A stretch of 53,818 nt of DNA from Alphaproteobacteria bacterium (lineage in GTDB: Bacteria > Pseudomonadota > Alphaproteobacteria > GCA-2731375), in assembly GCA_028824965.1 (NCBI GenBank), contig JAPKBD010000002.1, forward strand, positions 1 through 53,818, written 5' to 3'. Shown piece after piece: positions 4,496 to 12,520 of the stretch. Position 1 is the first letter of the stretch. Each line of letters starts with the position of its first letter. The notes below the pieces were generated by a model. It ran no database searches. It was not told the origin of the DNA and worked only from the letters and a program-made list of their open reading frames with translations. Position numbers and translations under genes: made by a program.

Positions 4496-5845
4496 TCAGC
4501 TCGTAGTCGGAAAGAACTGGTTCTCCGGGCGGGGCAGCCCGAGATTTTCGCGCAAAGTCGCGCCCTCATATTCACGGCGAAACAGCCCCCGGCGCTGTAA
4601 TTCGGGGACCACTTTGTCGACGAAATCGTCCAGGCCACCTGGCAGATAGGGGAACATGACGTTGAAGCCGTCACAGCCGTCTTCCATCAACCATTCCTCC
4701 ATCTGATCGGCAATCATGGCGGGCGTACCAACCATGGCCAGGCCGGAATAGCCACCCAGACGCCCGGCCAGTTGGCGCACCGACAGCCCTTCGCGTGCGG
4801 CGAGGCGTAGTACCCGTTCGCGACCGCTTTTGGAATCATTACTTTCCGGAATATCCGGCAATGGCCCATCAGGATTGAAACCGGAGGCATCCGTCCCCAA
4901 CGCAATGGAAAGGGAGGCAATACCACTGTCGTAATGCACTAGGCTATCCAACAGGGCGCGTTTTTCCTTTGCCTCCTCCACCGTATCGCCAACCACGACG
5001 AAGGCACCAGGTAGCACCTTTAAATGATCGCGGGGACGGTCCAGTTTATCCATGCGGCCCTTGACGTCGGCATAGAACGCCTTGCCATCCGCCAGGGTCG
5101 GTGTGGCGGCAAAGATTACCTCTGCCGTTTCCGCTGCCAATTGACGTCCCGCCTCGGACGCCCCCGCTTGAACGATGACGGGCCAACCCTGGATCGGCCG
5201 GGCAATATTCAAAGGTCCGCGAACGGACAAATATTCGCCCTTGTGGTCGAGCACATGCATCTTGTCCGTATCAAAATAAATCCCAGCATCGGGATCACGA
5301 ATGAAGGCATCGTCGGCCCAGCTGTCCCACAAACCCGTCACCACATCCACGTACTCCCGCGCCCGGGCATAGCGGTCGCCGTGGTCCATATGCGCTTCCA
5401 TACCAAAGTTCAGGGCCGCATCCGGGTTCGAGGTGGTGACCATGTTCCACGCCGCCCGGCCACCACTAATATGATCGAGGGAGGCAAAACGCCGGGCTAC
5501 AGTATAGGCGGGCTCAAACGTTGTTGAGGCGGTGGCGATCAGGCCCAAATGCTCCGTCACCATAGCCAGGGCGGGCAACAGGGTCAGGGGATCGAACGAG
5601 GTGACCGTGGCGCTGCGTTTAAGGGCATCCATGGGCATGTTCAAAACTGCCAGATGATCGGCCATGAAAAACGCGTCGAAGCGTCCCCGCTCCAATGTTT
5701 GGGCAAACTTTGTGATGGCCTTCAGATTGAAATTCGCATCGGGCGTGCCGCCGGGATAGCGCCAGGCGGCGGTATGGATGCTGACCGGGCGCATAAACGC
5801 GCCCAACCTTAGTTGACGTTTGCGGGATTGTGGTTGGCTGCTCAT
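4496..5845 (-). CDS. LLM-class flavin-dependent monooxygenase (NtaA/SnaA/DszA family)
   Basis: 449 aa. The N-terminus LRLGAFMRPVSIHTAAWRYPG...FDAFFMADHLAV and the overall length are typical of nitrilotriacetate-monooxygenase component A-type enzymes. Its start overlaps the stop of the upstream gene by 4 nt. Confidence 0.8.
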   Translation of the reverse strand: MSSQPQSRKRQLRLGAFMRPVSIHTAAWRYPGGTPDANFNLKAITKFAQTLERGRFDAFFMADHLAVLNMPMDALKRSATVTSFDPLTLLPALAMVTEHLGLIATASTTFEPAYTVARRFASLDHISGGRAAWNMVTTSNPDAALNFGMEAHMDHGDRYARAREYVDVVTGLWDSWADDAFIRDPDAGIYFDTDKMHVLDHKGEYLSVRGPLNIARPIQGWPVIVQAGASEAGRQLAAETAEVIFAATPTLADGKAFYADVKGRMDKLDRPRDHLKVLPGAFVVVGDTVEEAKEKRALLDSLVHYDSGIASLSIALGTDASGFNPDGPLPDIPESNDSKSGRERVLRLAAREGLSVRQLAGRLGGYSGLAMVGTPAMIADQMEEWLMEDGCDGFNVMFPYLPGGLDDFVDKVVPELQRRGLFRREYEGATLRENLGLPRPENQFFPTTS

Positions 5846-6447
5846 TTTTGTCTTTCAATCTCTGCTTCCACATCGGACAGGCGGTCTTTGCCAAAGAATA
5901 TCTCATCACCCACATAGAAGGTCGGGCTGCCGAAAGTCCCTCGTTCGACCGAAGCCTTGGTGTTGGCCAGCAACTCATCCTTCACTGACTGGTCCTGAAT
6001 GCCTGCCAGAATCTCTGCGCCATCAAAGCCGGATTGCCCAAGGGCGGCGGCAATGACATCTGCATCATCCATTTTCTTCGGCTCCTCCCACATATGGCCG
6101 TATACGGCGTCCACATAGTCCGCCAGTCGGTCCATCCGTTGGGCCAGAACGGCACCACGCATAATTTGCACCGTATTGACGGGGAAATGGGGATTGCGGT
6201 TATATGCAGTCAAATCGTGTTTACGGACAAATCGGTCCATCTCCAGTCGGCCATATTCGTTTTTGTTTTTGATGCCGTGAAATTGTTCCATTGGCGATTT
6301 GTTGTTGGTCAGTTTAAAAACACCCCCCAGTAACATCGGAACGTAAGTACAGGCCACACCCGTGCGCTTGACCAGGTCCGGCAGGACCTTGTGACAGAAA
6401 TAAGCGTTGGGACTTCCGAAATCGAAATGAAATTCAAAATTGGGCAC
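5842..6447 (-). CDS. 2-hydroxychromene-2-carboxylate isomerase / DsbA-like thioredoxin-fold protein
   Basis: Motifs FEFHFDFGSPNAYF and GTFGSPTFYVGDEIFFGKDRL. I place the start at GTG 6447, preceded by GGAA 8 nt upstream. The ORF-track start at 6531 would overlap the divergent MFS gene start and adds an atypical 28-aa extension. Confidence 0.7.
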   Translation of the reverse strand: MPNFEFHFDFGSPNAYFCHKVLPDLVKRTGVACTYVPMLLGGVFKLTNNKSPMEQFHGIKNKNEYGRLEMDRFVRKHDLTAYNRNPHFPVNTVQIMRGAVLAQRMDRLADYVDAVYGHMWEEPKKMDDADVIAAALGQSGFDGAEILAGIQDQSVKDELLANTKASVERGTFGSPTFYVGDEIFFGKDRLSDVEAEIERQK

Positions 6448-6529
6448 GATGTATATTCCTATGTCGCAATTACTGCAGTTGTTCTTGAGGGCTTTGGACG
6501 AATGATATCCGTCGGCTTGGAATTTAGCC

Positions 6530-7753
6530 ATGCATGAAACCGATACCTCACTGTGGCGTGATTATCGCGCCCTGTCCTTTGTCATCTGGCTATCCATCGC
6601 CCAGACCGTGTCATGGGGCATCATGTTCTATGGCTTTGCCGTCTTCATCAAACCCCTGACGACAGAGTTTGGTTGGAGCAAAGCGGAGATCACCGGCGCC
6701 TTTACTTTGTCTTTGTTTGTGGTCGGCCTCGCCTCCATCAGCGCGGGCAGTATTCTGGACCGTTTCGGTGGACGTACATTGATGACGGGGGCATCCGCCT
6801 TGGGCGCCGTTTTGATGGTCGCAGCGGGGCAGATTGAGGGGCTGGCGGCCTATTATGTGGTCTGGGTCGGTTTAGGGCTGGCCATGTCGGCGACATTATA
6901 TCCATCAGGCTTTGCCGTCGTCGTCGCCACCCTGGGCAGTCGTGCACGCCAGGGCATTACCGTCATGACGTTGATCGCCGGTTTCGCCAGCACGGTCTTT
7001 ATCCCTCTGATCAGCTTCATGGTCGATCATATCGGCTGGCGCGACAGCTTTTCATGGCTGGGCGTAATATTGTTGGTGGTTTGTGTGCCGATCCATTTGG
7101 TTGTCCTGCGTCTGGAACGGGTGCCGGGCGCGGGTCAGACGGAGCGACCACGCATATTTTCCATCGATACAAAATCGGGGCCAGTTGCTGCTGGTTTGCG
7201 CAATCCGGCTTTTTGGTGGATCGGTGTGTGCCTGACCGCGAACTCGTTCGTCATGGCGGGCGTTACCGTGCATATCATTCCCCTGATGTTGGAGCGCGGC
7301 TTTGCCATGGCGACGATAGTTGGCACCATTGCCATGATCGGCCCCATGCAGGTCGCAGGCCGCGTCGTGGTCACGGTTTTCGAAAGATGGCTGGACTTCC
7401 GCAAGGCGGGCCTTGTTTCAGGTATATTTCTGTTGATCGGCTTTGCCCTGCTGGCCCAGGTTCAGCCTGACAACTATTTCAATTATCTGTTTCCCATCTT
7501 CTATGGCGGATCGTTGGGCATCATCACCATTGTTCGCGGCATCGCGGTGCCGGAGCTGATCGGCCCGGAAGCCTATGGTGCCCTGAACGGCATAATCGGC
7601 CTGGCCTCCGCCTTGGCGCTGGCGGCGGCACCAGTGCTGTTATCCTGGGTTTGGTTGATCGGAGGATCCTATACCGCGCCCTTGATCCTGCTGTTCGCCG
7701 TCGCCTTGCTTTCATTGCTGAGTTTTCTTGTCGCAGCGCGACGAAAGATCTAA
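6530..7753 (+). CDS. MFS transporter
   Basis: 407 aa with about 12 hydrophobic helices. It carries an MFS-type loop (ILDRFGGR). Confidence 0.75.
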   Translation: MHETDTSLWRDYRALSFVIWLSIAQTVSWGIMFYGFAVFIKPLTTEFGWSKAEITGAFTLSLFVVGLASISAGSILDRFGGRTLMTGASALGAVLMVAAGQIEGLAAYYVVWVGLGLAMSATLYPSGFAVVVATLGSRARQGITVMTLIAGFASTVFIPLISFMVDHIGWRDSFSWLGVILLVVCVPIHLVVLRLERVPGAGQTERPRIFSIDTKSGPVAAGLRNPAFWWIGVCLTANSFVMAGVTVHIIPLMLERGFAMATIVGTIAMIGPMQVAGRVVVTVFERWLDFRKAGLVSGIFLLIGFALLAQVQPDNYFNYLFPIFYGGSLGIITIVRGIAVPELIGPEAYGALNGIIGLASALALAAAPVLLSWVWLIGGSYTAPLILLFAVALLSLLSFLVAARRKI

Positions 7754-7799: not shown

Positions 7800-8435
7800 T
7801 TGGCGCAGGAAGAACGCAGGCTGGCAGCGGTCGTGCAAGCTGACGTGGTGGATTATTCCCGCCTGATCGGCCTGGATGAGGACGGTACCCGCGTTCGGTT
7901 GCAGGCCCACCGGGCCGAATGGATTGACCCCAAAATTGCCGAACATGGTGGCCGCATCGTCAAGACTATGGGTGACGGCCTGTTGCTGGAATTTGCCTCC
8001 GCCGTTAATGCCACCCACTGCGCCATAGACATTCAATCCGGCATGATCTATCGAAACGCCGGGTTGGACGACGATCAGGCGATCAGGTTCCGCATTGGCG
8101 TTAATCTAGGTGACGTCGTCGTCGACGGCGATGATATCTATGGCGACGGGGTCAATGTCGCAGCCCACCTGGTGGCCTTGGCAGAACCCGGCAACATCTA
8201 TCTTAGCCGGGCGGCCCGTGATCAAGTGTTGGACCGCATAGACCTCCCCCTAGAAGAAGCGGGCGAGGTCGAAGTGGAGAATATCGCCCAGCCCGTACAG
8301 ATCTTTCGAATAACCTTGAAAATCGCATTAAAACCCAGCATCACAGGGGGCCTGACGCGTTCTCACCGCTACGGCCTCGCCGCCGTGATTGCTATACTGG
8401 TCGCCTATTACTCCTACGATATCTGGTACGGCTAG
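7800..8435 (+). CDS. Class III adenylate/guanylate cyclase domain protein with a C-terminal TM helix
   Basis: Motifs RRLAAVVQADVVDYSRL...GGRIVKTMGDGLLLEFASAVNA...RIGVNLGDVVVDGDDIYGDGVNVAA. TTG start with AAGGGG 8 nt upstream. The hydrophobic tail is YGLAAVIAILVAYYSYDIW. The TAG stop lies inside the repeat terminus. Confidence 0.75.
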   Translation: MAQEERRLAAVVQADVVDYSRLIGLDEDGTRVRLQAHRAEWIDPKIAEHGGRIVKTMGDGLLLEFASAVNATHCAIDIQSGMIYRNAGLDDDQAIRFRIGVNLGDVVVDGDDIYGDGVNVAAHLVALAEPGNIYLSRAARDQVLDRIDLPLEEAGEVEVENIAQPVQIFRITLKIALKPSITGGLTRSHRYGLAAVIAILVAYYSYDIWYG

Positions 8436-8503: not shown

Positions 8504-8539
8504 AAAAAATGGCCGGACACATATTTCATGTATCCGGCC
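8491..8539 (-). terminator. Rho-independent terminator for the P460-like gene
   Basis: On the minus strand, a GGCCGGA...TCCGGCC stem with an inner ACAT/ATGT extension (8511-8539) is followed by AUUUUUUCGGCAUUUUUUCC. Confidence 0.55.
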
Positions 8540-8581
8540 AAGTGTGGAGACGAGACAACAGGTAGGCTGCTACAGGAACAC

Positions 8582-9619
8582 TTAGGGTACGCGGTACTCA
8601 TCGGGTAGGAACATCAGGCTGTCTTGTTCGTCTGCCACGGCCATGTGGCATTCGTAACAAAATTTCACCTTGGCCGAACCAGTGCCGTTTGTGGTGCCAA
8701 AGACCTGGCCGTTTGGCAGCACCATGACGTAACGCCAGTTGCCGGATTCTTTGTTGAAATTCGAGGACATTTTTTCCATGAGGAATAGCGGCCCTGGCCC
8801 AACCTTACCCTGGGCCGAAACCGTGAAGCTGTCTTTGGCCAGCTTTGCACCAACAGGCATCCGACCCACGGCCTCATACTTGCCGTACCTCCCCGCTAAT
8901 GAATTGCCGTAATTATTGACGAAACGGCCACCATGGGTGTCTGAAACATAGGGTTGGGTGGTGTAGTTTTTCCAATCCTTGTAGTGGCTGGCGACCGCCA
9001 TTCCGGATTTTGAATAGCCGGCGACCAGGTCTTTGATGATGCTGGCATAAGCTTTGCGCGCCTGTCCCGCCGTCAGCTCTGGCGCCTCGGCACCGCCACA
9101 GGGATTACAGGCACCGCAGGCGTTCTTTGCCGCACAGGGGTTACATGGGTTGCATACGCCACATCCGGTCTTCTTCGCTGCACAGGGATTACATGCGCTA
9201 CATCCCTTCTTGGCGGCGCAGGGGTTGCAAGCACCGCAGCCTTTTTTGGCAGCGCACGGGTTACATGCGCCACAACCCTTTTTGGTAGCGCAGGGATTGC
9301 AGGCACCACAACCGGACTTCTTCGCCGCACATGGATTGCAGCCGCCGCAGCGCGCCTTTTGACCACCACACGGTGTACAGGCGGCAAGCTTTAAGGGGGC
9401 CCAAGGTGCCTGAGGGGCAGGAACGGCAGGCCCATTGGGCAACTGCCCCCTGGCCACCGCAGTTGGGTTTACATTAGCTGAAGCGGCGGACCCGCTCGGC
9501 GCAATTGCGCGGGCGAATGCCACGTCAGCCAGGGAAATTGAGGCACCAGCTGTCAGGGCGGCACCCATAACCACGTGCAAGACGGATATCTTGGTGAGTT
9601 TGTTTTTTCGTTGTTCCAC
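8582..9619 (-). CDS. Secreted Cys-repeat protein with a C-terminal cytochrome-P460-like haem domain
   Basis: The best start is GTG 9619, with GGAGG 7 nt upstream. This gives a Sec-type signal (EQRKNKLTKISVLHVVMGAALTAGASISLADVAFA). Next come seven CGACNPCAAKKG-type repeats. The C-terminal domain carries YKDWKNY...GNWRYVMV...KFCYECHMAV (CxxCH), similar to cytochrome P460 / c'-beta proteins. Confidence 0.6.
   Translation of the reverse strand: MEQRKNKLTKISVLHVVMGAALTAGASISLADVAFARAIAPSGSAASANVNPTAVARGQLPNGPAVPAPQAPWAPLKLAACTPCGGQKARCGGCNPCAAKKSGCGACNPCATKKGCGACNPCAAKKGCGACNPCAAKKGCSACNPCAAKKTGCGVCNPCNPCAAKNACGACNPCGGAEAPELTAGQARKAYASIIKDLVAGYSKSGMAVASHYKDWKNYTTQPYVSDTHGGRFVNNYGNSLAGRYGKYEAVGRMPVGAKLAKDSFTVSAQGKVGPGPLFLMEKMSSNFNKESGNWRYVMVLPNGQVFGTTNGTGSAKVKFCYECHMAVADEQDSLMFLPDEYRVP
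9095..9379 (-). repeat. In-frame tandem 36-39 nt coding repeats (7 units, 24 Cys in 95 aa) inside the P460-like gene
   Basis: Units are CGGCNPCAAKKSG, CGACNPCATKKG, CGACNPCAAKKG (x2), CSACNPCAAKKTG, CGVCNPCNPCAAKNA and CGACNPCGG. The two identical peptide units differ at 9 of 12 codons, all synonymous. Confidence 0.9.
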
Positions 9620-9789
9620 GATGCAGCCTCCGGGCATTTGCGATTTGTTGATGTTGTTTTCCATATTCAATCTGCTCTCAACCTGGCTGCTTAACGAGTC
9701 ACATCGCCTCAAACTTCCGTGATGCTCCCTTTGATAAAGCCTGTCCTGCGTATAAATTCAGGTTCGGCTTCGAGAGGGAGGACATAATT

Positions 9790-10674
9790 GTGCGATCAGT
9801 TGTGCGATCGTTAGGCATCATGAGCACCATGGCCACCATGATCATCGGCCTTTGGGTTTACAGTGTCCATGCTGGCACTCTCTTGCTTCCGCAAACCATC
9901 ACGGTCCCCGCCGGGACATTCATTGCCGGATCAGACAGGGCGGAACGGGATGCCGCCTATGACCTGGACCAGGCGGCCTATGGTCACGACCGGACCCGGC
10001 AGTGGGGTTGGTACGATGACGAACGACCGCGAAGTCAACTGCACATGGCCGCATTCGTTATCACCCGGACCCTGATCACCAATGTTCAATACGCGGCCTT
10101 TATCGCAGCCACCGGGCATTCCGCCCCGGATGTGGACGTACAAACCTGGCGCAGTTACGGCCTTATCCATCCCTACATTCGGACCCGGCGGCATGCCTGG
10201 GTGGCCGGCAAGCCCCCTACTGGTCGCGGGGATCATCCGGTGGTTTTAGTTTCGCACCATGATGCGATGTCCTATGCGGCGTGGCTAAACACCTATGGCA
10301 AAGGCCACTGGCGACTACCAAGAGAGCTGGAATGGGAAAAGGCGGCCCGGGGTCGGAATGGACACTATTTCCCCTGGGGCAACAAATTCGACGCCGCGCG
10401 CCTGAACAGCCACGATGTCGGGCCATTTGATACCATTGCGGTAGGTGCTTTTCCTGACGGTGCCAGCCCTTATGGCTTGGTTGATGCCGCAGGTCAGGTG
10501 TTCGAGTGGACGGCAACGCCTGCGAAAAATTCGAAGCCGAGCAAAATCCGATATCTGGTCAAGGGCGGTTCATGGGACGACAAGGGTTGTGGCGTCTGCC
10601 GGCCCGCCGCGCGCCATGGCCGGCCTGCGGCGATAAAGCACATACTGATCGGCTTTCGGCTGATCCGGGAATGA
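9790..10674 (+). CDS. Secreted formylglycine-generating-enzyme (SUMF1/FGE-sulfatase) family protein
   Basis: GTG start with GGGAGG 8 nt upstream and an N-terminal hydrophobic signal. Motifs: HPVVLVSHHDAMSYAAWL, WRLPRELEWEKAARG, PWGN, SPYGLVDAAGQVFEWT, VKGGSWDDKGCGVCRPAARHGR, IGFRL. Confidence 0.75.
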   Translation: MRSVVRSLGIMSTMATMIIGLWVYSVHAGTLLLPQTITVPAGTFIAGSDRAERDAAYDLDQAAYGHDRTRQWGWYDDERPRSQLHMAAFVITRTLITNVQYAAFIAATGHSAPDVDVQTWRSYGLIHPYIRTRRHAWVAGKPPTGRGDHPVVLVSHHDAMSYAAWLNTYGKGHWRLPRELEWEKAARGRNGHYFPWGNKFDAARLNSHDVGPFDTIAVGAFPDGASPYGLVDAAGQVFEWTATPAKNSKPSKIRYLVKGGSWDDKGCGVCRPAARHGRPAAIKHILIGFRLIRE

Positions 10675-10708
10675 TGCAGAATGGGCCACGAACATAAGGA
10701 TTTCCATC

Positions 10709-11413
10709 ATGAGTCTGTTTGATAACCTGTCCCAGGAGCGGCTGGAAAAAATGGCTGCCGCAGGGACAGAGGTTCTGGAATGCTATCGGGTTCTGGAAAA
10801 GACCTCCGCCAATGTGGTCGGCCACATCATTGAACACAGCGGCACCTTTTATGAATGGGACCATTACCCAGAAGGTGATGTCTATGACCACGAAACCTAT
10901 GGCCAGTATTATTATCATTCCCACCGCCCGGAAGCTGGTGAACACGGCCATTTCCATCTGTTCATGCGCCGCGAAGGCATCCCCGACCGCATGCAGATAA
11001 AGCCGTTTGCAGGCACCGGGGAGTGGCCCGAAAACGACGATATCATCTGTCATCTGATCGCCATTGTCATGGAGCCCAAGGGCTACCCCACCCATCTGTT
11101 CACCACCAACCGCTGGGTCACAGGTGAATATTGGTATGGCGCCGAAGACGTAACAGCCTTGCTGGACAATTATGCCATCGACCACACATTTCCATCCTGG
11201 GCCGCCAACCGCTGGATCACGGCCATGGTGGCGCTGTACCACCCCCAGATTGCACAATTGCTGTTGCAGCGGGATGTCGCCATACAGAATTGGTCGGACA
11301 GCCACGACGGCGATGTGTTGGAGGACCGGGAGTTGGAGGTCACCTCAAAAATCTCCCTGGACATCAAGCATCAGATCAAGCAAATCAATAAGGCATTAAA
11401 GAAATTCAAATAG
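10709..11413 (+). CDS. Conserved hypothetical protein with a His-rich, cupin-like metal motif
   Basis: 234-aa ORF with AAGGA upstream. It contains the segment YYYHSHRPEAGEHGHFHLF. I recognise no characterised family with confidence. Confidence 0.55.
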   Translation: MSLFDNLSQERLEKMAAAGTEVLECYRVLEKTSANVVGHIIEHSGTFYEWDHYPEGDVYDHETYGQYYYHSHRPEAGEHGHFHLFMRREGIPDRMQIKPFAGTGEWPENDDIICHLIAIVMEPKGYPTHLFTTNRWVTGEYWYGAEDVTALLDNYAIDHTFPSWAANRWITAMVALYHPQIAQLLLQRDVAIQNWSDSHDGDVLEDRELEVTSKISLDIKHQIKQINKALKKFK

Positions 11414-11424
11414 ACGCCAATAAA

Positions 11425-11838
11425 ATGGGAAATGGGGACATGGATAAAATCAGCAAGACCGAGGCCGAGTGGCGGGAACAGTTAAGCCCGGAAGAATATC
11501 ACGTGGCCCGGGAAAAAGGCACAGAACGCCCCTTTGGCCCCGGCTACAACAGCAGCTATGAGCTGGGCACCTATGCCTGTATTTGCTGTGGGTTGGAGTT
11601 GTTTACCTCTGAGACGAAGTTCGATTCCGGTACCGGCTGGCCCAGTTTCCACACTCCAATCGCAGCGGAAAATGTTATCGAAGAAGACGACACCTCCCTG
11701 TTCATGAAACGCACCGAAGTTATGTGCGCCCGCTGCGACGGCCATCTGGGTCATCTGTTCCCCGACGGCCCGGCCCCCACGGGCCTGCGATATTGTTTGA
11801 ATTCAGCCTCTTTGCGGCTGATCGAAGAAGATAAATAA
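11425..11838 (+). CDS. msrB: Peptide-methionine (R)-S-oxide reductase
   Basis: Motifs GTYACICCGLELFTSETKFDSGTGWPSF and CARCDGHLGHLFPDGP..TGLRYCLNS (two CxxC pairs and the catalytic RYC). Confidence 0.9.
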   Translation: MGNGDMDKISKTEAEWREQLSPEEYHVAREKGTERPFGPGYNSSYELGTYACICCGLELFTSETKFDSGTGWPSFHTPIAAENVIEEDDTSLFMKRTEVMCARCDGHLGHLFPDGPAPTGLRYCLNSASLRLIEEDK

Positions 11839-11851
11839 GGACCAAATCAGT

Positions 11852-12520
11852 ATGAGTAATCAAACGAGCCCAAATAGCGATATTAGGGCGGTGTTGTGGG
11901 ATTTCGGCGGTGTCTTCACCACGTCGCCGTTTGAGGCATTTACGACGTTCGAGGCGGACCGCGGCCTGCCAAAAGATTTCATCCGCAGCATCAATGCGAC
12001 AAATCCCGACGACAACGCCTGGGCAAAGATGGAACGCAATGATGTCACCAAGGCGGAATTCGGCGACCTGTTCGAAGTCGAATCCCGGGCCGCCGGGCAC
12101 GCCATCAACGGCAGCGAAATCCTGCCCCTGTTATCGGGCCGCATACAGCCCGAAATGGTCACCGCCCTAAGCATCGTCGCCAAACATTACAAGACCGCCT
12201 GCCTGACCAACAACATGCAGACGGGCCACGGCCCGTCCATGACCGGGGACGCGGACAAGGCGGCGGATATCGCCAAGATCATGGAAATATTTGAGCTGGT
12301 GGTCGAATCCAGCAAAATCGGCGTCCGCAAGCCGGAACCAAAGTTCTATCAAACCGCCTGCGAAATGCTGGGTGTGGAGCCGTCCCAGGCAGTCTTTATG
12401 GATGATCTGGGCGTCAACCTGAAACCGGCCAAGGCCATGGGGATGACCACAATCAAGGTGCTGTCAGCGGGCCAGGCCATCGAAGACCTGGAAGCGATCC
12501 TGGGTATTTCCCTGCGATAG
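11852..12520 (+). CDS. HAD-superfamily hydrolase (subfamily IA)
   Basis: Motif I VLWDFGGV and a distal DDLGVNLKPAKAMGM motif; 222 aa. Confidence 0.75.
   Translation: MSNQTSPNSDIRAVLWDFGGVFTTSPFEAFTTFEADRGLPKDFIRSINATNPDDNAWAKMERNDVTKAEFGDLFEVESRAAGHAINGSEILPLLSGRIQPEMVTALSIVAKHYKTACLTNNMQTGHGPSMTGDADKAADIAKIMEIFELVVESSKIGVRKPEPKFYQTACEMLGVEPSQAVFMDDLGVNLKPAKAMGMTTIKVLSAGQAIEDLEAILGISLR

What the first reader, a model, noticed from the sequence alone, without database searches (positions are those of the whole stretch)
9095..9379. Seven CGACNPCAAKKG repeats (24 cysteines in 95 residues) maintained by selection on the peptide rather than on the DNA
After a Sec-type signal peptide, the protein carries seven tandem 12-15 aa units with three Cys each, spaced C-x2-C-x2-C and separated by KK. 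Units 3 and 4 are identical peptides but differ at 9 of 12 codons, all synonymously. The array is therefore old and under purifying selection, not a recent slippage product. The repeats are fused to a domain with P460/c'-beta-like features and a single CxxCH (KFCYECH). A periplasmic, Lys-flanked poly-CxxCxxC array suggests several roles: high-capacity soft-metal (Cu/Zn/Cd) or persulfide binding, a disulfide/redox relay to the haem, or a multi-site substrate for a modifying enzyme. I know of no assigned function for this repeat.
Basis: seen in the sequence. Interest (0 to 1): 0.7.

Follow-up and report, generated by a model that had tools for sequence, protein, structure and literature searches.

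The report
Cysteine-repeat arm on a P460 haem protein
A secreted haem protein of a marine bacterium carries a string of Cys-Asn-Pro-Cys repeats that proves to be a widespread, undescribed protein module, found alone or fused to two kinds of haem domain and nearly always encoded beside the same two uncharacterised enzyme-like genes, which points to an unstudied periplasmic thiol system.

Summary
The minus-strand gene 8582-9619 encodes a signal peptide, a Pro/Ala linker, 24 Cys in 95 residues (seven CxxCNPC units) and a C-terminal P460-type haem domain. That domain scores above the Pfam cut-off, has a confident model whose only fold matches are P460/c'-beta, and carries an invariant CxxCH and a Lys aligned with the P460 cross-link Lys.

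The units in this gene are synonymously saturated. However, alleles with a virtually identical P460 domain carry 5, 6 or 7 units and have lost single Cys or Pro residues. Across relatives the count runs from 0 to 49.

The conserved core is C-N-P-C, not CxxCxxC.

New findings:
- The array is an autonomous module. It also occurs as about 90-residue secreted proteins and on both sides of a SoxA/TsdA-like haem domain.
- It is genomically coupled to a periplasmic FGE-like protein with an invariant CGxC and to the His-rich DUF6969, and often to a cupredoxin-like protein or a class-I cytochrome c. In this window the first two sit at 9790-11413.

No family model or paper describes the array. Function is unknown. 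My best reading is a thiolate capture arm, most likely for Cu(I), serviced by these partners (confidence 0.4).

The parts
8582..9619 (-). Coding sequence of the Cys-repeat/P460-type haem protein (345 aa plus stop). The start is the GTG at 9617-9619.
   Evidence: ORF 8582-9712. A conserved GGAGG-N7-GTG is seen in 11 aligned relatives. The reading frame was checked. The deposited protein P0511 begins MEQRKNK.
9512..9619 (-). Sec-type signal peptide MEQRKNKLTKISVLHVVMGAALTAGASISLADVAFA. Cleavage after AFA is inferred.
   Evidence: Read from the sequence. The same architecture is seen in homologues. No signal-peptide predictor was available.
9380..9511 (-). Pro/Ala-rich linker (aa 68-111 of the 376-aa ORF).
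9095..9379 (-). Cys-repeat array: 95 aa, 24 Cys, seven CxxCNPC units, with C-N-P-C-A-A-K-K as the core.
8585..9094 (-). P460/c'-beta-fold haem domain (aa 207-376). The Pfam PF16694 match covers 8627-8986.
   Evidence: Pfam E = 3.5e-7 and 31.1 bits. AlphaFold pLDDT 90. Foldseek top 12 hits are all P460/c'-beta, with McP460 at E = 6e-6.
8834..8836 (-). Invariant Lys (ORF aa 293, in AKDSF). It is the candidate haem cross-linking lysine.
   Evidence: K87 is invariant in alignment A1. HMMER aligns it with the Lys of VKE in N. europaea P460. The review lists Lys70/78/106 as the cross-link residues (PMC11928373).
8645..8659 (-). The single haem c attachment motif, CYECH (aa 352-356).
   Evidence: C146, C149 and H150 are invariant in A1.
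8510..8540 (-). Terminator-like hairpin (14-bp stem plus T run) about 40 nt after the stop codon. The gene is probably monocistronic.
9694..9722 (-). Conserved upstream block TCACGGAAGTTTGAGGCGATGTGACTCGT, a candidate promoter or operator.
   Evidence: Alignment of 11 intergenic regions. Its resemblance to an ECF-type GGAAC-N17-CGTT promoter holds only in close relatives.
9790..10674 (+). Divergently transcribed FGE-sulfatase-fold protein with an N-terminal hydrophobic leader and an invariant GGSWDD-GCGxCR motif.
   Evidence: PF03781 E = 8e-42. The motif is invariant in 32 orthologues. The gene is found beside arrays in 20 of 49 genome loci and 33 of 80 DUF6969 loci.
10709..11413 (+). DUF6969 protein. 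It has no leader, an invariant His/Asp/Glu cluster, and no solved structural relative.
   Evidence: PF22308 E = 6e-80. Invariant residues. AlphaFold pLDDT 89.5 with no PDB match at E < 1. Co-occurrence data.

Best explanation
The array is one copy of an autonomous, Sec-exported module. It is polycationic and built from C-N-P-C-A-A-K-K units. I read it as a flexible, multivalent thiolate arm in the periplasm. Its most likely job is high-capacity capture and buffering of a soft ligand, most probably Cu(I) or another thiophilic metal. In this window the arm is tethered to a P460-type, open-coordination haem domain.

The arm works within a conserved partner set:
- a periplasmic FGE-fold protein with an invariant CGxC pair in the loop where true formylglycine-generating enzymes hold their copper-binding cysteines;
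- the cytoplasmic, His-rich DUF6969;
- in many genomes, a cupredoxin-like protein and/or a class-I cytochrome c.

Selection acts on having 'enough' CNPC units, not on an exact fold.

Shown:
- the architecture and the P460 fold;
- the modularity of the array;
- conservation of the motif;
- copy-number polymorphism between close alleles;
- the gene-neighbourhood coupling.

Inferred:
- export and cleavage of the signal peptide;
- the haem-Lys cross-link;
- that the thiols bind metal rather than form disulfides or carry sulfur;
- that the FGE-like protein and DUF6969 load, modify or protect the arm.
For: 1. Composition is metallothionein-like. Across 265 array proteins it is A 23%, C 21%, P 14%, N 13%, K 12% and G 6%. 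Aromatic residues plus His are below 1%, and Asp plus Glu are below 1%. The median net charge of the mature small proteins is +9.

2. CxxC is the dominant spacing. 62% of inter-Cys gaps are 2 residues, and Cys sits at -2 of Pro in 85% of 3,773 sites.

3. The trait is capacity-like, not fold-like.
- Alleles with 0-1 changes in the haem domain carry 5-7 units and tolerate C->F and P->S.
- Counts range from 0 to 49 across relatives.
- Cys parity in the small proteins is 64 even against 45 odd, so no obligate all-disulfide architecture is implied.

4. The module is autonomous.
- About 90-aa proteins consist of a signal peptide plus array.
- Arrays flank a SoxA/TsdA-like haem domain on both sides.
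- Array-less P460-like relatives exist.

5. The genomic coupling runs in both directions.
- Of 49 P460-centred genome loci with good flanks, 21 have DUF6969, 20 the FGE-like gene, 18 cytochrome c and 8 a second stand-alone array gene. 35 have at least one.
- Of 80 DUF6969-centred metagenome loci, 38 hold an array ORF, 33 the FGE-like gene and 18 the cupredoxin-like gene.
- Locus L098 is FGE-like / array / DUF6969 with no P460 at all.

6. There is a published parallel. Bufferins are Sec-exported Cys peptides that chelate periplasmic copper. Buf1|Cytochrom_C|FGE-sulfatase chimaeras have been reported (PMC11626156 and PMC12452194).

7. The CGxC pair of the FGE-like protein is invariant. It lies in the loop after GGSW that aligns with the FGE/SUMF2 active-site loop.
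Against: - No metal-binding data exist.
- No copper-resistance genes recur in the neighbourhoods. SCO1/SenC appears once.
- The cupredoxin-like partner has no conserved His or Met copper ligands.
- The near-invariant Asn-Pro between the cysteines is unusual for metallothioneins. It looks more like an enzyme recognition motif.
- Periplasmic CxxC pairs would be expected to be oxidised by DsbA unless protected.
- SoxA/TsdA-like fusion partners, and YeeE-type and DUF302 neighbours in some loci, point to sulfur rather than metal.
- About half of the well-flanked loci lack the FGE-like gene or DUF6969 nearby.
Confidence: 0.4

Rival explanations
1. The array is a multi-site substrate in a RiPP-like scheme. 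The cysteines of C-N-P-C would be chemically converted by the FGE-like oxidase in the periplasm, and/or by DUF6969 in the cytoplasm before export. Possible products are formylglycine, another oxidised or cyclised form, or aldehyde-Lys cross-links. The modified array would be the active species. This can coexist with a metal-binding end function.
For: - Non-Cys positions are strongly conserved: Asn 91%, Pro, then A-A-K-K. This is typical of enzyme-recognised core repeats such as the EGKCG repeats of oxazolins.
- C-x-P matches two of the three key positions of the FGE motif C-x-P-x-R.
- The FGE-like protein has a leader peptide and an invariant Cys pair.
- DUF6969 has an invariant His/Asp/Glu cluster and a confident fold with no known relative.
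- Tight gene coupling persists with stand-alone arrays.
- Copy number is variable, as in multi-core precursors.
Against: - The position equivalent to the essential Arg of the FGE motif is Ala, Asn or Gly.
- The best PDB relatives of the FGE-like protein are ToxD, CalU17 and OvsA, not true FGEs, and its Cys spacing is CxxC rather than Cx4C.
- Some arrays are pure NPCAA repeats without Cys at -2.
- No MNIO/DUF692 or DUF2063 genes were seen in the neighbourhoods.
- No chemistry has been tested.
Confidence: 0.2
2. The array is a thiol/disulfide or sulfane-sulfur carrier arm for its haem partner, analogous to SoxY serving SoxAX. The array cysteines would be oxidatively coupled to each other, or to sulfide or thiosulfate, at the haem. 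Electrons would leave via the neighbouring class-I cytochrome c.
For: - Arrays are fused on both sides of a SoxA/TsdA-type domain. PF21342 scores 37.8 bits against a cut-off of 27.
- That domain keeps the CxxCH and a Cys which aligns with the residue I count as Cys114 in Rhodovulum SoxA 1h31. Its role as axial ligand is from my memory of the SoxAX structure.
- Class-I cytochrome c lies next to the array-P460 gene in 18 of 49 loci, and next to DUF6969 in Sneathiella.
- YeeE-type sulfur transporters and DUF302 recur nearby.
- CNPC resembles the CGPC motif of thioredoxin (my knowledge).
Against: - This window has no sulfur-oxidation genes nearby.
- P460 domains are known for NH2OH/NO chemistry, not sulfur (PMC11928373).
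- The YeeE and DUF302 neighbours occur in a minority of loci, some of which are related by descent.
- The scheme gives no role to the FGE-like protein or DUF6969.
Confidence: 0.2
3. The array is a chemically passive low-complexity spacer or tether, perhaps a string of disulfide-locked turns. It would merely position a P460 enzyme that detoxifies hydroxylamine or NO. The gene neighbourhood would then be incidental.
For: - Copy number varies freely, and array-less relatives exist even within Kiloniellales.
- Single Cys losses are tolerated.
- The haem domain is far more conserved than the array.
Against: - C-N-P-C is kept across at least 580 species genomes and in proteins that have no enzyme domain to tether.
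- The module recurs with two unrelated haem domains and with the same partner genes after rearrangement.
- A passive spacer would not need 21% Cys.
Confidence: 0.12

Closest known systems
Cytochrome P460 / cytochrome c'-beta superfamily (Pfam PF16694; NeP460 2je2, McP460 6hiu)
   Same: - C-terminal single CxxCH.
- Mainly beta-sheet fold. The top 12 Foldseek PDB hits are all from this family.
- Pfam hit above the gathering score.
- An invariant Lys aligned with the cross-linking Lys of NeP460.
   Different: - Only about 17-20% identical to solved members. Sequence matches to them are marginal, at E = 0.02-0.04.
- It belongs to a distinct subfamily: 1,094 representatives at 50% identity with E < 1e-3.
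- Most members of this subfamily add an N-terminal C-x-[VI]-P-R-L element and a helix-1 Cys. The window protein lacks both.
- It carries the Cys array, which the 2025 review of the family does not mention.
- Activity is unknown.
Bufferins and oxazolins (MNIO-modified, Sec-exported Cys-peptide copper chelators; Buf_EGKCG repeats)
   Same: - Sec signal peptide on a small Cys-rich product.
- Tandem short Cys motifs with variable copy number.
- A cytoplasmic metalloenzyme-like partner gene.
- ECF sigma/anti-sigma genes next to some loci.
- Reported chimaeras of bufferin with cytochrome c and FGE-sulfatase domains (PMC12452194).
   Different: - No MNIO (DUF692) or DUF2063 genes in any neighbourhood examined.
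- The motif is CNPCAAKK, not EGKCG or DUF2282.
- The partners are DUF6969 and an FGE-fold protein.
- No modification has been demonstrated.
Metallothioneins
   Same: - 21-25% Cys.
- CxxC motifs with neighbouring Lys.
- Virtually no aromatic residues or His.
- Low complexity.
   Different: - No match to any metallothionein family model.
- Exported to the periplasm.
- Strictly periodic, with conserved Asn-Pro.
- Fused to haem domains.
- Metal binding is untested.
Formylglycine-generating enzyme and its C-x-P-x-R substrates
   Same: - The neighbour gene has the complete FGE-sulfatase fold, PF03781 covering positions 3-255 of 255.
- It has two invariant Cys in the active-site loop region.
- The array offers C-x-P in an unfolded context.
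   Different: - There is no Arg at +4 of the substrate motif.
- The Cys pair is CxxC rather than Cx4C (plus my knowledge of FGE).
- It is closer by sequence to ToxD, CalU17 and OvsA than to FGE.
- No sulfatase is encoded nearby.
SoxAX-SoxYZ thiosulfate-oxidising system
   Same: A Cys-bearing flexible arm that serves a His/Cys-type c haem. Some arrays are fused directly to a SoxA/TsdA-like domain.
   Different: - No SoxY fold and no GGCGG arm.
- Dozens of cysteines rather than one.
- The window protein has a P460-type haem, not a SoxA-type haem.

Membership tests
Cytochrome P460 family (PF16694) | Profile match above the curated cut-off | tested here: met
   31.1 bits against a cut-off of 27, E = 3.5e-7, aa 243-362. 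The match is marginal, and several homologues fall below the threshold.
Cytochrome P460 family (PF16694) | P460/c'-beta fold with a C-terminal CxxCH | tested here: met
   AlphaFold pLDDT 90 and pTM 0.87. Foldseek's top 12 PDB hits are all P460 or c'-beta, with TM up to 0.68 normalised to the target. CxxCH is invariant.
Cytochrome P460 proper (as opposed to c'-beta) | Lys at the haem cross-link position (NeP460 Lys70, McP460 Lys78) | tested here: met
   An invariant Lys in AKDSF aligns with the VKE Lys of 2je2/8gar. The defining residues come from PMC11928373. This holds at the level of a weak alignment only. The covalent cross-link itself cannot be tested here.
Cytochrome P460 proper | Distal carboxylate needed for NH2OH oxidation (Glu96/Asp102) | tested here: inconclusive
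   NeP460 Glu96 falls in an insertion that is absent from this subfamily. A mostly conserved Glu in LFLMEKM lies next to that gap.
Cytochrome P460 proper | 460-nm Soret band and NH2OH/NO reactivity | not testable with these tools
   Needs purified protein.
Metallothionein | Cys-rich, aromatic-free, low-complexity sequence | tested here: met
   25% Cys with no aromatic residues or His in the window array.
Metallothionein | Match to a known metallothionein family model | tested here: not met
   Pfam and NCBIfam give only a sub-threshold zf-CXXC hit, 15.1 bits against 26.5.
Metallothionein | Metal-thiolate clusters | not testable with these tools
   Needs ICP-MS or spectroscopy.
Bufferin/oxazolin-type RiPPs | Sec-signal precursor with repeated Cys motif | tested here: met
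   Stand-alone proteins of 85-130 aa consist of a signal peptide plus 4-6 CNPC(NPC)AAKK units.
Bufferin/oxazolin-type RiPPs | MNIO (DUF692) enzyme with a DUF2063 partner in the cluster | tested here: not met
   None appears among the Pfam-annotated neighbours in 13 look-ups.
FGE substrate | C-x-P-x-R core motif | tested here: not met
   C-x-P is present in 85% of sites, but the +4 position is Ala 50%, Asn 37% or Gly 10%.
True formylglycine-generating enzyme (neighbour gene) | Cx4C copper-binding pair and closest similarity to FGE | tested here: not met
   The invariant pair is C-G-x-C. The best PDB sequence relatives are ToxD, CalU17 and OvsA, and FGE matches cover only residues 140-242.

The most novel reading that the evidence does not exclude
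The CNPC-repeat proteins, DUF6969 and the CGxC FGE-fold protein may together form a previously unrecognised periplasmic system. They are often accompanied by a cupredoxin-like protein and an atypical c haem of P460 or SoxA type. In this system ribosomal Cys-repeat arms would be enzymatically converted or loaded by a new enzyme family: DUF6969, a confident fold without solved relatives, and/or an FGE-fold oxidase acting on C-N-P. The product would be a new class of protein-borne chelator or redox cofactor. That would make it a second route to bufferin-like products, independent of MNIO enzymes.
Probability: 0.3. Interest if true: 0.85.

Novelty: new variant of a known kind. Interest (0 to 1): 0.68.

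Why it matters
The module is not a curiosity of one gene.
- Relatives of the array-bearing haem domain occur in at least 580 species-level genomes, mainly marine Alphaproteobacteria.
- DUF6969 has about 4,900 homologues in the protein collection.
- None of the components has an assigned function.

If the arms bind copper or sulfur, this is an abundant and overlooked periplasmic buffering system in ocean bacteria.

If the arms are enzymatically modified, the finding would:
- assign a function to DUF6969;
- give the FGE fold a new substrate class;
- link P460-type and SoxA-type haems to protein-thiol chemistry rather than only to hydroxylamine or thiosulfate.

Cultured carriers exist (Pelagibius litoralis DSM 21314, Sneathiella species), so the question can be tested directly.

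Tried and rejected
- **Family and literature searches for the array.** Pfam and NCBIfam gave nothing except a sub-threshold zf-CXXC hit. Cornifin, CXorf66 and zf-CXXC labels on homologues are composition artefacts. Full-text searches for NPCAAK, DUF6969, and P460 with repeat or Cys-rich terms found nothing.
- **MsrB and HAD genes downstream of DUF6969 (11425-12520).** They are kept only in close relatives: 15-16 of 84 loci, all with at least 58% identity. I treat this as synteny by descent, not as part of the system.
- **Adenylate-cyclase neighbour (7800-8435).** It recurs in a few loci but inconsistently, so I did not pursue it.
- **ECF-type promoter.** The conserved upstream block fits GGAAG-N17-CGTT in the window and four close relatives. 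Overall only 7 of 68 upstream regions fit, against a background of about 4%. I do not claim it.
- **DUF6969 fold search.** The model is confident, but no PDB neighbour has E below 1. This gives no functional lead beyond the invariant His cluster.
- **Cupredoxin-like partner as evidence for copper.** The Pfam hits are weak and the protein has no conserved His or Met ligands. I count it as weak evidence only.
- **Disulfide between the C-x-[VI]-P-R-L element and the helix-1 Cys.** All six proteins that lack the helix Cys also lack the element. However, 22 have the Cys without the element, and some of those are truncated. This is suggestive, not proven.
- **Context of an array-less relative (P0190).** The contig was too short to be informative.
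Full report
**1. What is in the window**

The minus strand holds an ORF at 8582-9712. An alignment of 11 related upstream regions shows a conserved GGAGG followed 7 nt later by GTG. This places the start at 9617-9619. The deposited 345-aa product of this same contig begins there, with MEQRKNK.

The protein has four parts:
- a Sec-type leader ending in AFA;
- a 44-residue Pro/Ala linker;
- the array, at 9095-9379;
- a 170-residue C-terminal domain containing KFCYECH.

A 14-bp hairpin with a T run follows the stop codon, so the gene is probably monocistronic.

Two identical GCGACNPCAAKK units differ at 9 of 12 codons, all synonymously. TRF finds a 36-nt period at 75% identity. Given the array's own codon usage, about 6.7 of 12 differences are expected. 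The units are therefore saturated at synonymous sites, not more diverged than chance.

**2. The haem domain**

- Pfam PF16694 matches at 31.1 bits, above the cut-off of 27.
- An AlphaFold model built on a 20-sequence alignment is confident, with pLDDT 90.
- Its only significant PDB fold matches are cytochromes P460 and c'-beta. There are 12 hits, and McP460 scores E = 6e-6.
- CxxCH is invariant.
- An invariant Lys in AKDSF (window 8834-8836) is aligned by HMMER with the VKE lysine of N. europaea P460. This is the cross-link residue that separates P460 from c'-beta (PMC11928373).

The position of the catalytic carboxylate is unresolved. I therefore file the domain as a divergent P460-type member with untested activity.

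**3. The array across relatives**

The full-length search returned 862 homologues. All of the top 120 have NPC repeats, from 2 to 37 of them, and a CxxCH about 24 residues from the C-terminus. A genome scan found relatives in at least 580 species-level genomes. Most are marine Alphaproteobacteria: Rhodospirillaceae MAGs, Kiloniellaceae, Pelagibius, Sneathiella and Rhodovibrionaceae.

I pooled 265 array proteins containing 3,773 P-C sites.
- Cys is at -2 of Pro in 85% of sites, and Asn is at -1 in 91%.
- The following residues are A-A-K-K or N-P-C.
- 62% of inter-Cys gaps are two residues, and 22% are five.
- Composition is A 23%, C 21%, P 14%, N 13%, K 12% and G 6%.
- Aromatic residues plus His, and acidic residues, are each below 1%.

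The conserved unit is therefore C-N-P-C in a basic Ala/Lys context. The window's CGACNPC is a local variant.

**4. Evolutionary dynamics**

In the window gene, identical 10-residue peptides differ at 71% of codons. This is the highest value among the 73 genes tested. Many relatives, however, contain exact DNA duplicates, and several lie far below expectation (L048: 0.16 against 0.35; L080: 0.24 against 0.56).

The clearest evidence comes from the 90%-identity cluster of the window protein.
- Twelve alleles have 0-1 differences in the 170-residue haem domain.
- Their arrays are 70, 71, 83 or 95 residues long, which is 5, 6 or 7 units and 18-24 Cys.
- They also carry C->F and P->S substitutions in the core motif.

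The motif is thus under long-term selection. Unit number and individual cysteines are not. This fits a capacity or avidity function better than a folded domain.

More distant relatives of the haem domain often have no array. Some of these keep an N-terminal C-x-[VI]-P-R-L element together with a helix-1 Cys, and others have neither. Kiloniella laminariae is a cultured example without an array. In most array-bearing proteins the arrays sit both before this element and between it and helix 1. The window protein lacks both the element and the helix Cys.

**5. The array is an autonomous module**

Searching with the 95-residue array alone gave 267 hits.
- Most are complete proteins of 85-130 residues: a signal peptide, a short linker such as IQLAAC, four to six CNPC(NPC)AAKK units and a Lys-rich C-terminus. 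Several lie on contigs of 0.1-2 Mb.
- Others carry arrays on one or both sides of a mono-haem domain. That domain passes the Pfam cut-off for SoxA/TsdA cytochrome c, at 37.8 bits against 27.
- The domain aligns with Rhodovulum SoxA 1h31. Both the CxxCH histidine and a downstream Cys are conserved. By my count these are His80 and Cys114, and the ligand role of Cys114 is from my memory of that structure.
- At least eight genome loci encode a stand-alone array protein next to the array-P460 gene.

**6. Conserved neighbourhood**

In the window, the array-P460 gene is divergent from three groups of genes:
- an FGE-sulfatase-fold gene at 9790-10674 (PF03781, E = 8e-42, hydrophobic leader);
- DUF6969 at 10709-11413;
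- MsrB and a HAD hydrolase further downstream.

MsrB and HAD persist only in close relatives.

The FGE-like gene and DUF6969 persist at 50-60% identity and survive rearrangements, as in L035, L062, L074 and L080.

| Sample | Loci counted | DUF6969 | FGE-like | Array ORF | Class-I cyt c | Cupredoxin-like | SoxA-like | P460 | Source |
|---|---|---|---|---|---|---|---|---|---|
| P460-centred genome loci with good flanks | 49 | 21 | 20 | 8 (stand-alone) | 18 | not counted | not counted | 49 (by design) | |
| DUF6969-centred metagenome loci | 80 | 80 (by design) | 33 | 38 | 10 | 18 | 14 | 9 | |

- In the first sample, 35 of 49 loci have at least one partner.
- The second sample spans 48-87% identity to the window's DUF6969, and many of its contigs are only 1-5 kb, so its counts are lower bounds.

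The coupling follows the array rather than the P460 domain.
- L098 reads FGE-like / 92-aa array protein / DUF6969, with no P460.
- L089 reads ECF sigma and anti-sigma, then FGE-like, DUF6969, a cupredoxin-like protein and a 110-aa array protein.
- L092 replaces the FGE-like gene with an array-SoxA-like-array protein.

Further recurrent neighbours are DUF302 (12 loci), DUF2336 (13 loci) and YeeE-type sulfur transporters (6 loci). In Sneathiella, DUF6969 sits beside a class-I cytochrome c, away from the array-P460 gene.

**7. The partners**

- The FGE-like proteins share an invariant GGSWDD-GCGxCR motif. It lies in the loop that aligns with the active-site loop of SUMF2, CalU17 and ToxD. True FGEs hold copper with a Cx4C pair there (my knowledge). 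By sequence the protein is closer to ToxD, CalU17 and OvsA than to FGE.
- DUF6969 has no leader peptide. Its invariant residues include H52, D57, D60, H70, H72, E78, H81, H83 and H115. Its model is confident (pLDDT 89.5) and has no PDB neighbour at E below 1.
- The cupredoxin-like protein keeps three Cys but no His or Met ligands.

**8. Interpretation**

The following are shown:
- a P460-fold haem protein with a CNPC array;
- the modularity of the array;
- conservation of the motif, combined with copy-number polymorphism;
- a reciprocal genomic link to DUF6969 and a CGxC FGE-fold protein;
- recurrent association with atypical or class-I c haems.

No paper or family model covers the array.

The nearest described systems are the bufferins and oxazolins. 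These are Sec-exported Cys peptides that buffer periplasmic copper. Chimaeras of bufferin with cytochrome c and FGE-sulfatase domains have been reported. However, their defining MNIO/DUF2063 enzymes are absent here.

I rank a thiolate capture arm, most likely for Cu(I), first at 0.4. It is followed by enzymatic conversion of the cysteines (0.2), a thiol/sulfur relay to the haem (0.2) and a passive spacer (0.12). The first three are not mutually exclusive. The near-invariant Asn-Pro and the enzyme-like partners keep the modification model alive, and the SoxA-like fusions and YeeE neighbours keep the sulfur model alive.

**9. Verdict**

The finding is genuine and more interesting than a single odd fusion, but its chemistry is entirely untested. 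I class it as a new variant of a known kind: a P460-family haem protein carrying an undescribed Cys-repeat module. I put the chance at about 0.3 that the module and its partners form a new kind of periplasmic system.

Noticed in passing
L086:6001-6276, L098:6001-6279, L089:6001-6333 and many P0271-P0390 proteins: A family of stand-alone secreted proteins of about 85-130 aa that consist only of a signal peptide plus CNPC(NPC)AAKK repeats. All are annotated as hypothetical. They are often adjacent to DUF6969 and the FGE-like gene.
   Followed up: yes
L092:3204-4265, L090:5797-6483, L113:7333-8313: CNPC arrays flank a SoxA/TsdA-like mono-haem cytochrome c domain on both sides. The domain keeps a Cys aligned with SoxA Cys114.
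   Followed up: partly
window 10709-11413 (DUF6969): The AlphaFold model is confident (pLDDT 89.5) but has no structural neighbour in the PDB. An invariant cluster of six His plus Asp and Glu suggests a metal site. About 4,900 homologues exist.
   Followed up: partly
L089:5484-5942, L092:5491-5958, L098:4452-4940, L004:4305-4766, L080:7827-8282: A recurrent periplasmic protein of about 155 aa that is weakly cupredoxin-like. Its invariant motifs are CQF, DC..IN, VSGGGL and SCPLN.TPDY. It has three conserved Cys and no His or Met ligands. It is absent from the window.
   Followed up: partly
window 9694-9722 (minus strand): A 29-nt block, TCACGGAAGTTTGAGGCGATGTGACTCGT, is conserved upstream of the gene in relatives. 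It looks like an ECF-type promoter only in the closest ones. It also contains a TCAC...GTGA inverted element.
   Followed up: partly
L089:2057-3321 and L092:1609-2819: An ECF sigma factor and a DUF3379 anti-sigma gene lie immediately upstream of the FGE-like/DUF6969/array operon in two gammaproteobacterial-type loci.
   Followed up: no
window 7800-8435; L003:10217-12328; L094:3922-5703; L099:14446-16692: Adenylate/guanylate-cyclase-domain genes lie near array genes or DUF6969 in several unrelated loci. This may be coincidence in cyclase-rich genomes.
   Followed up: no
P0109 / P0137 (homologues): A LysM domain is inserted within the N-terminal array of some array-P460 proteins. This suggests peptidoglycan anchoring in those species.
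   Followed up: no
P0125, P0218, P0145, P0156 (homologues): Some relatives carry variant arrays without the Asn-Pro core: KCGAC repeats, DPC repeats, or pure NPCAA pentapeptide repeats.
   Followed up: no
window 11425-11838 and 11852-12520: MsrB (SelR) and a HAD hydrolase follow DUF6969 in the window and its close relatives only. A DsbA-like gene (5842-6531) and a luciferase-like monooxygenase (4496-5845) are syntenic on the other side.
   Followed up: partly
Most homologues (e.g. P0003, P0010); absent from window 8582-9619: A conserved C-x-[VI]-P-R-L element splits most arrays in two. It co-occurs with a Cys in helix 1 of the haem domain, which may indicate a disulfide. Array-less relatives keep the element directly before the domain.
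   Followed up: partly
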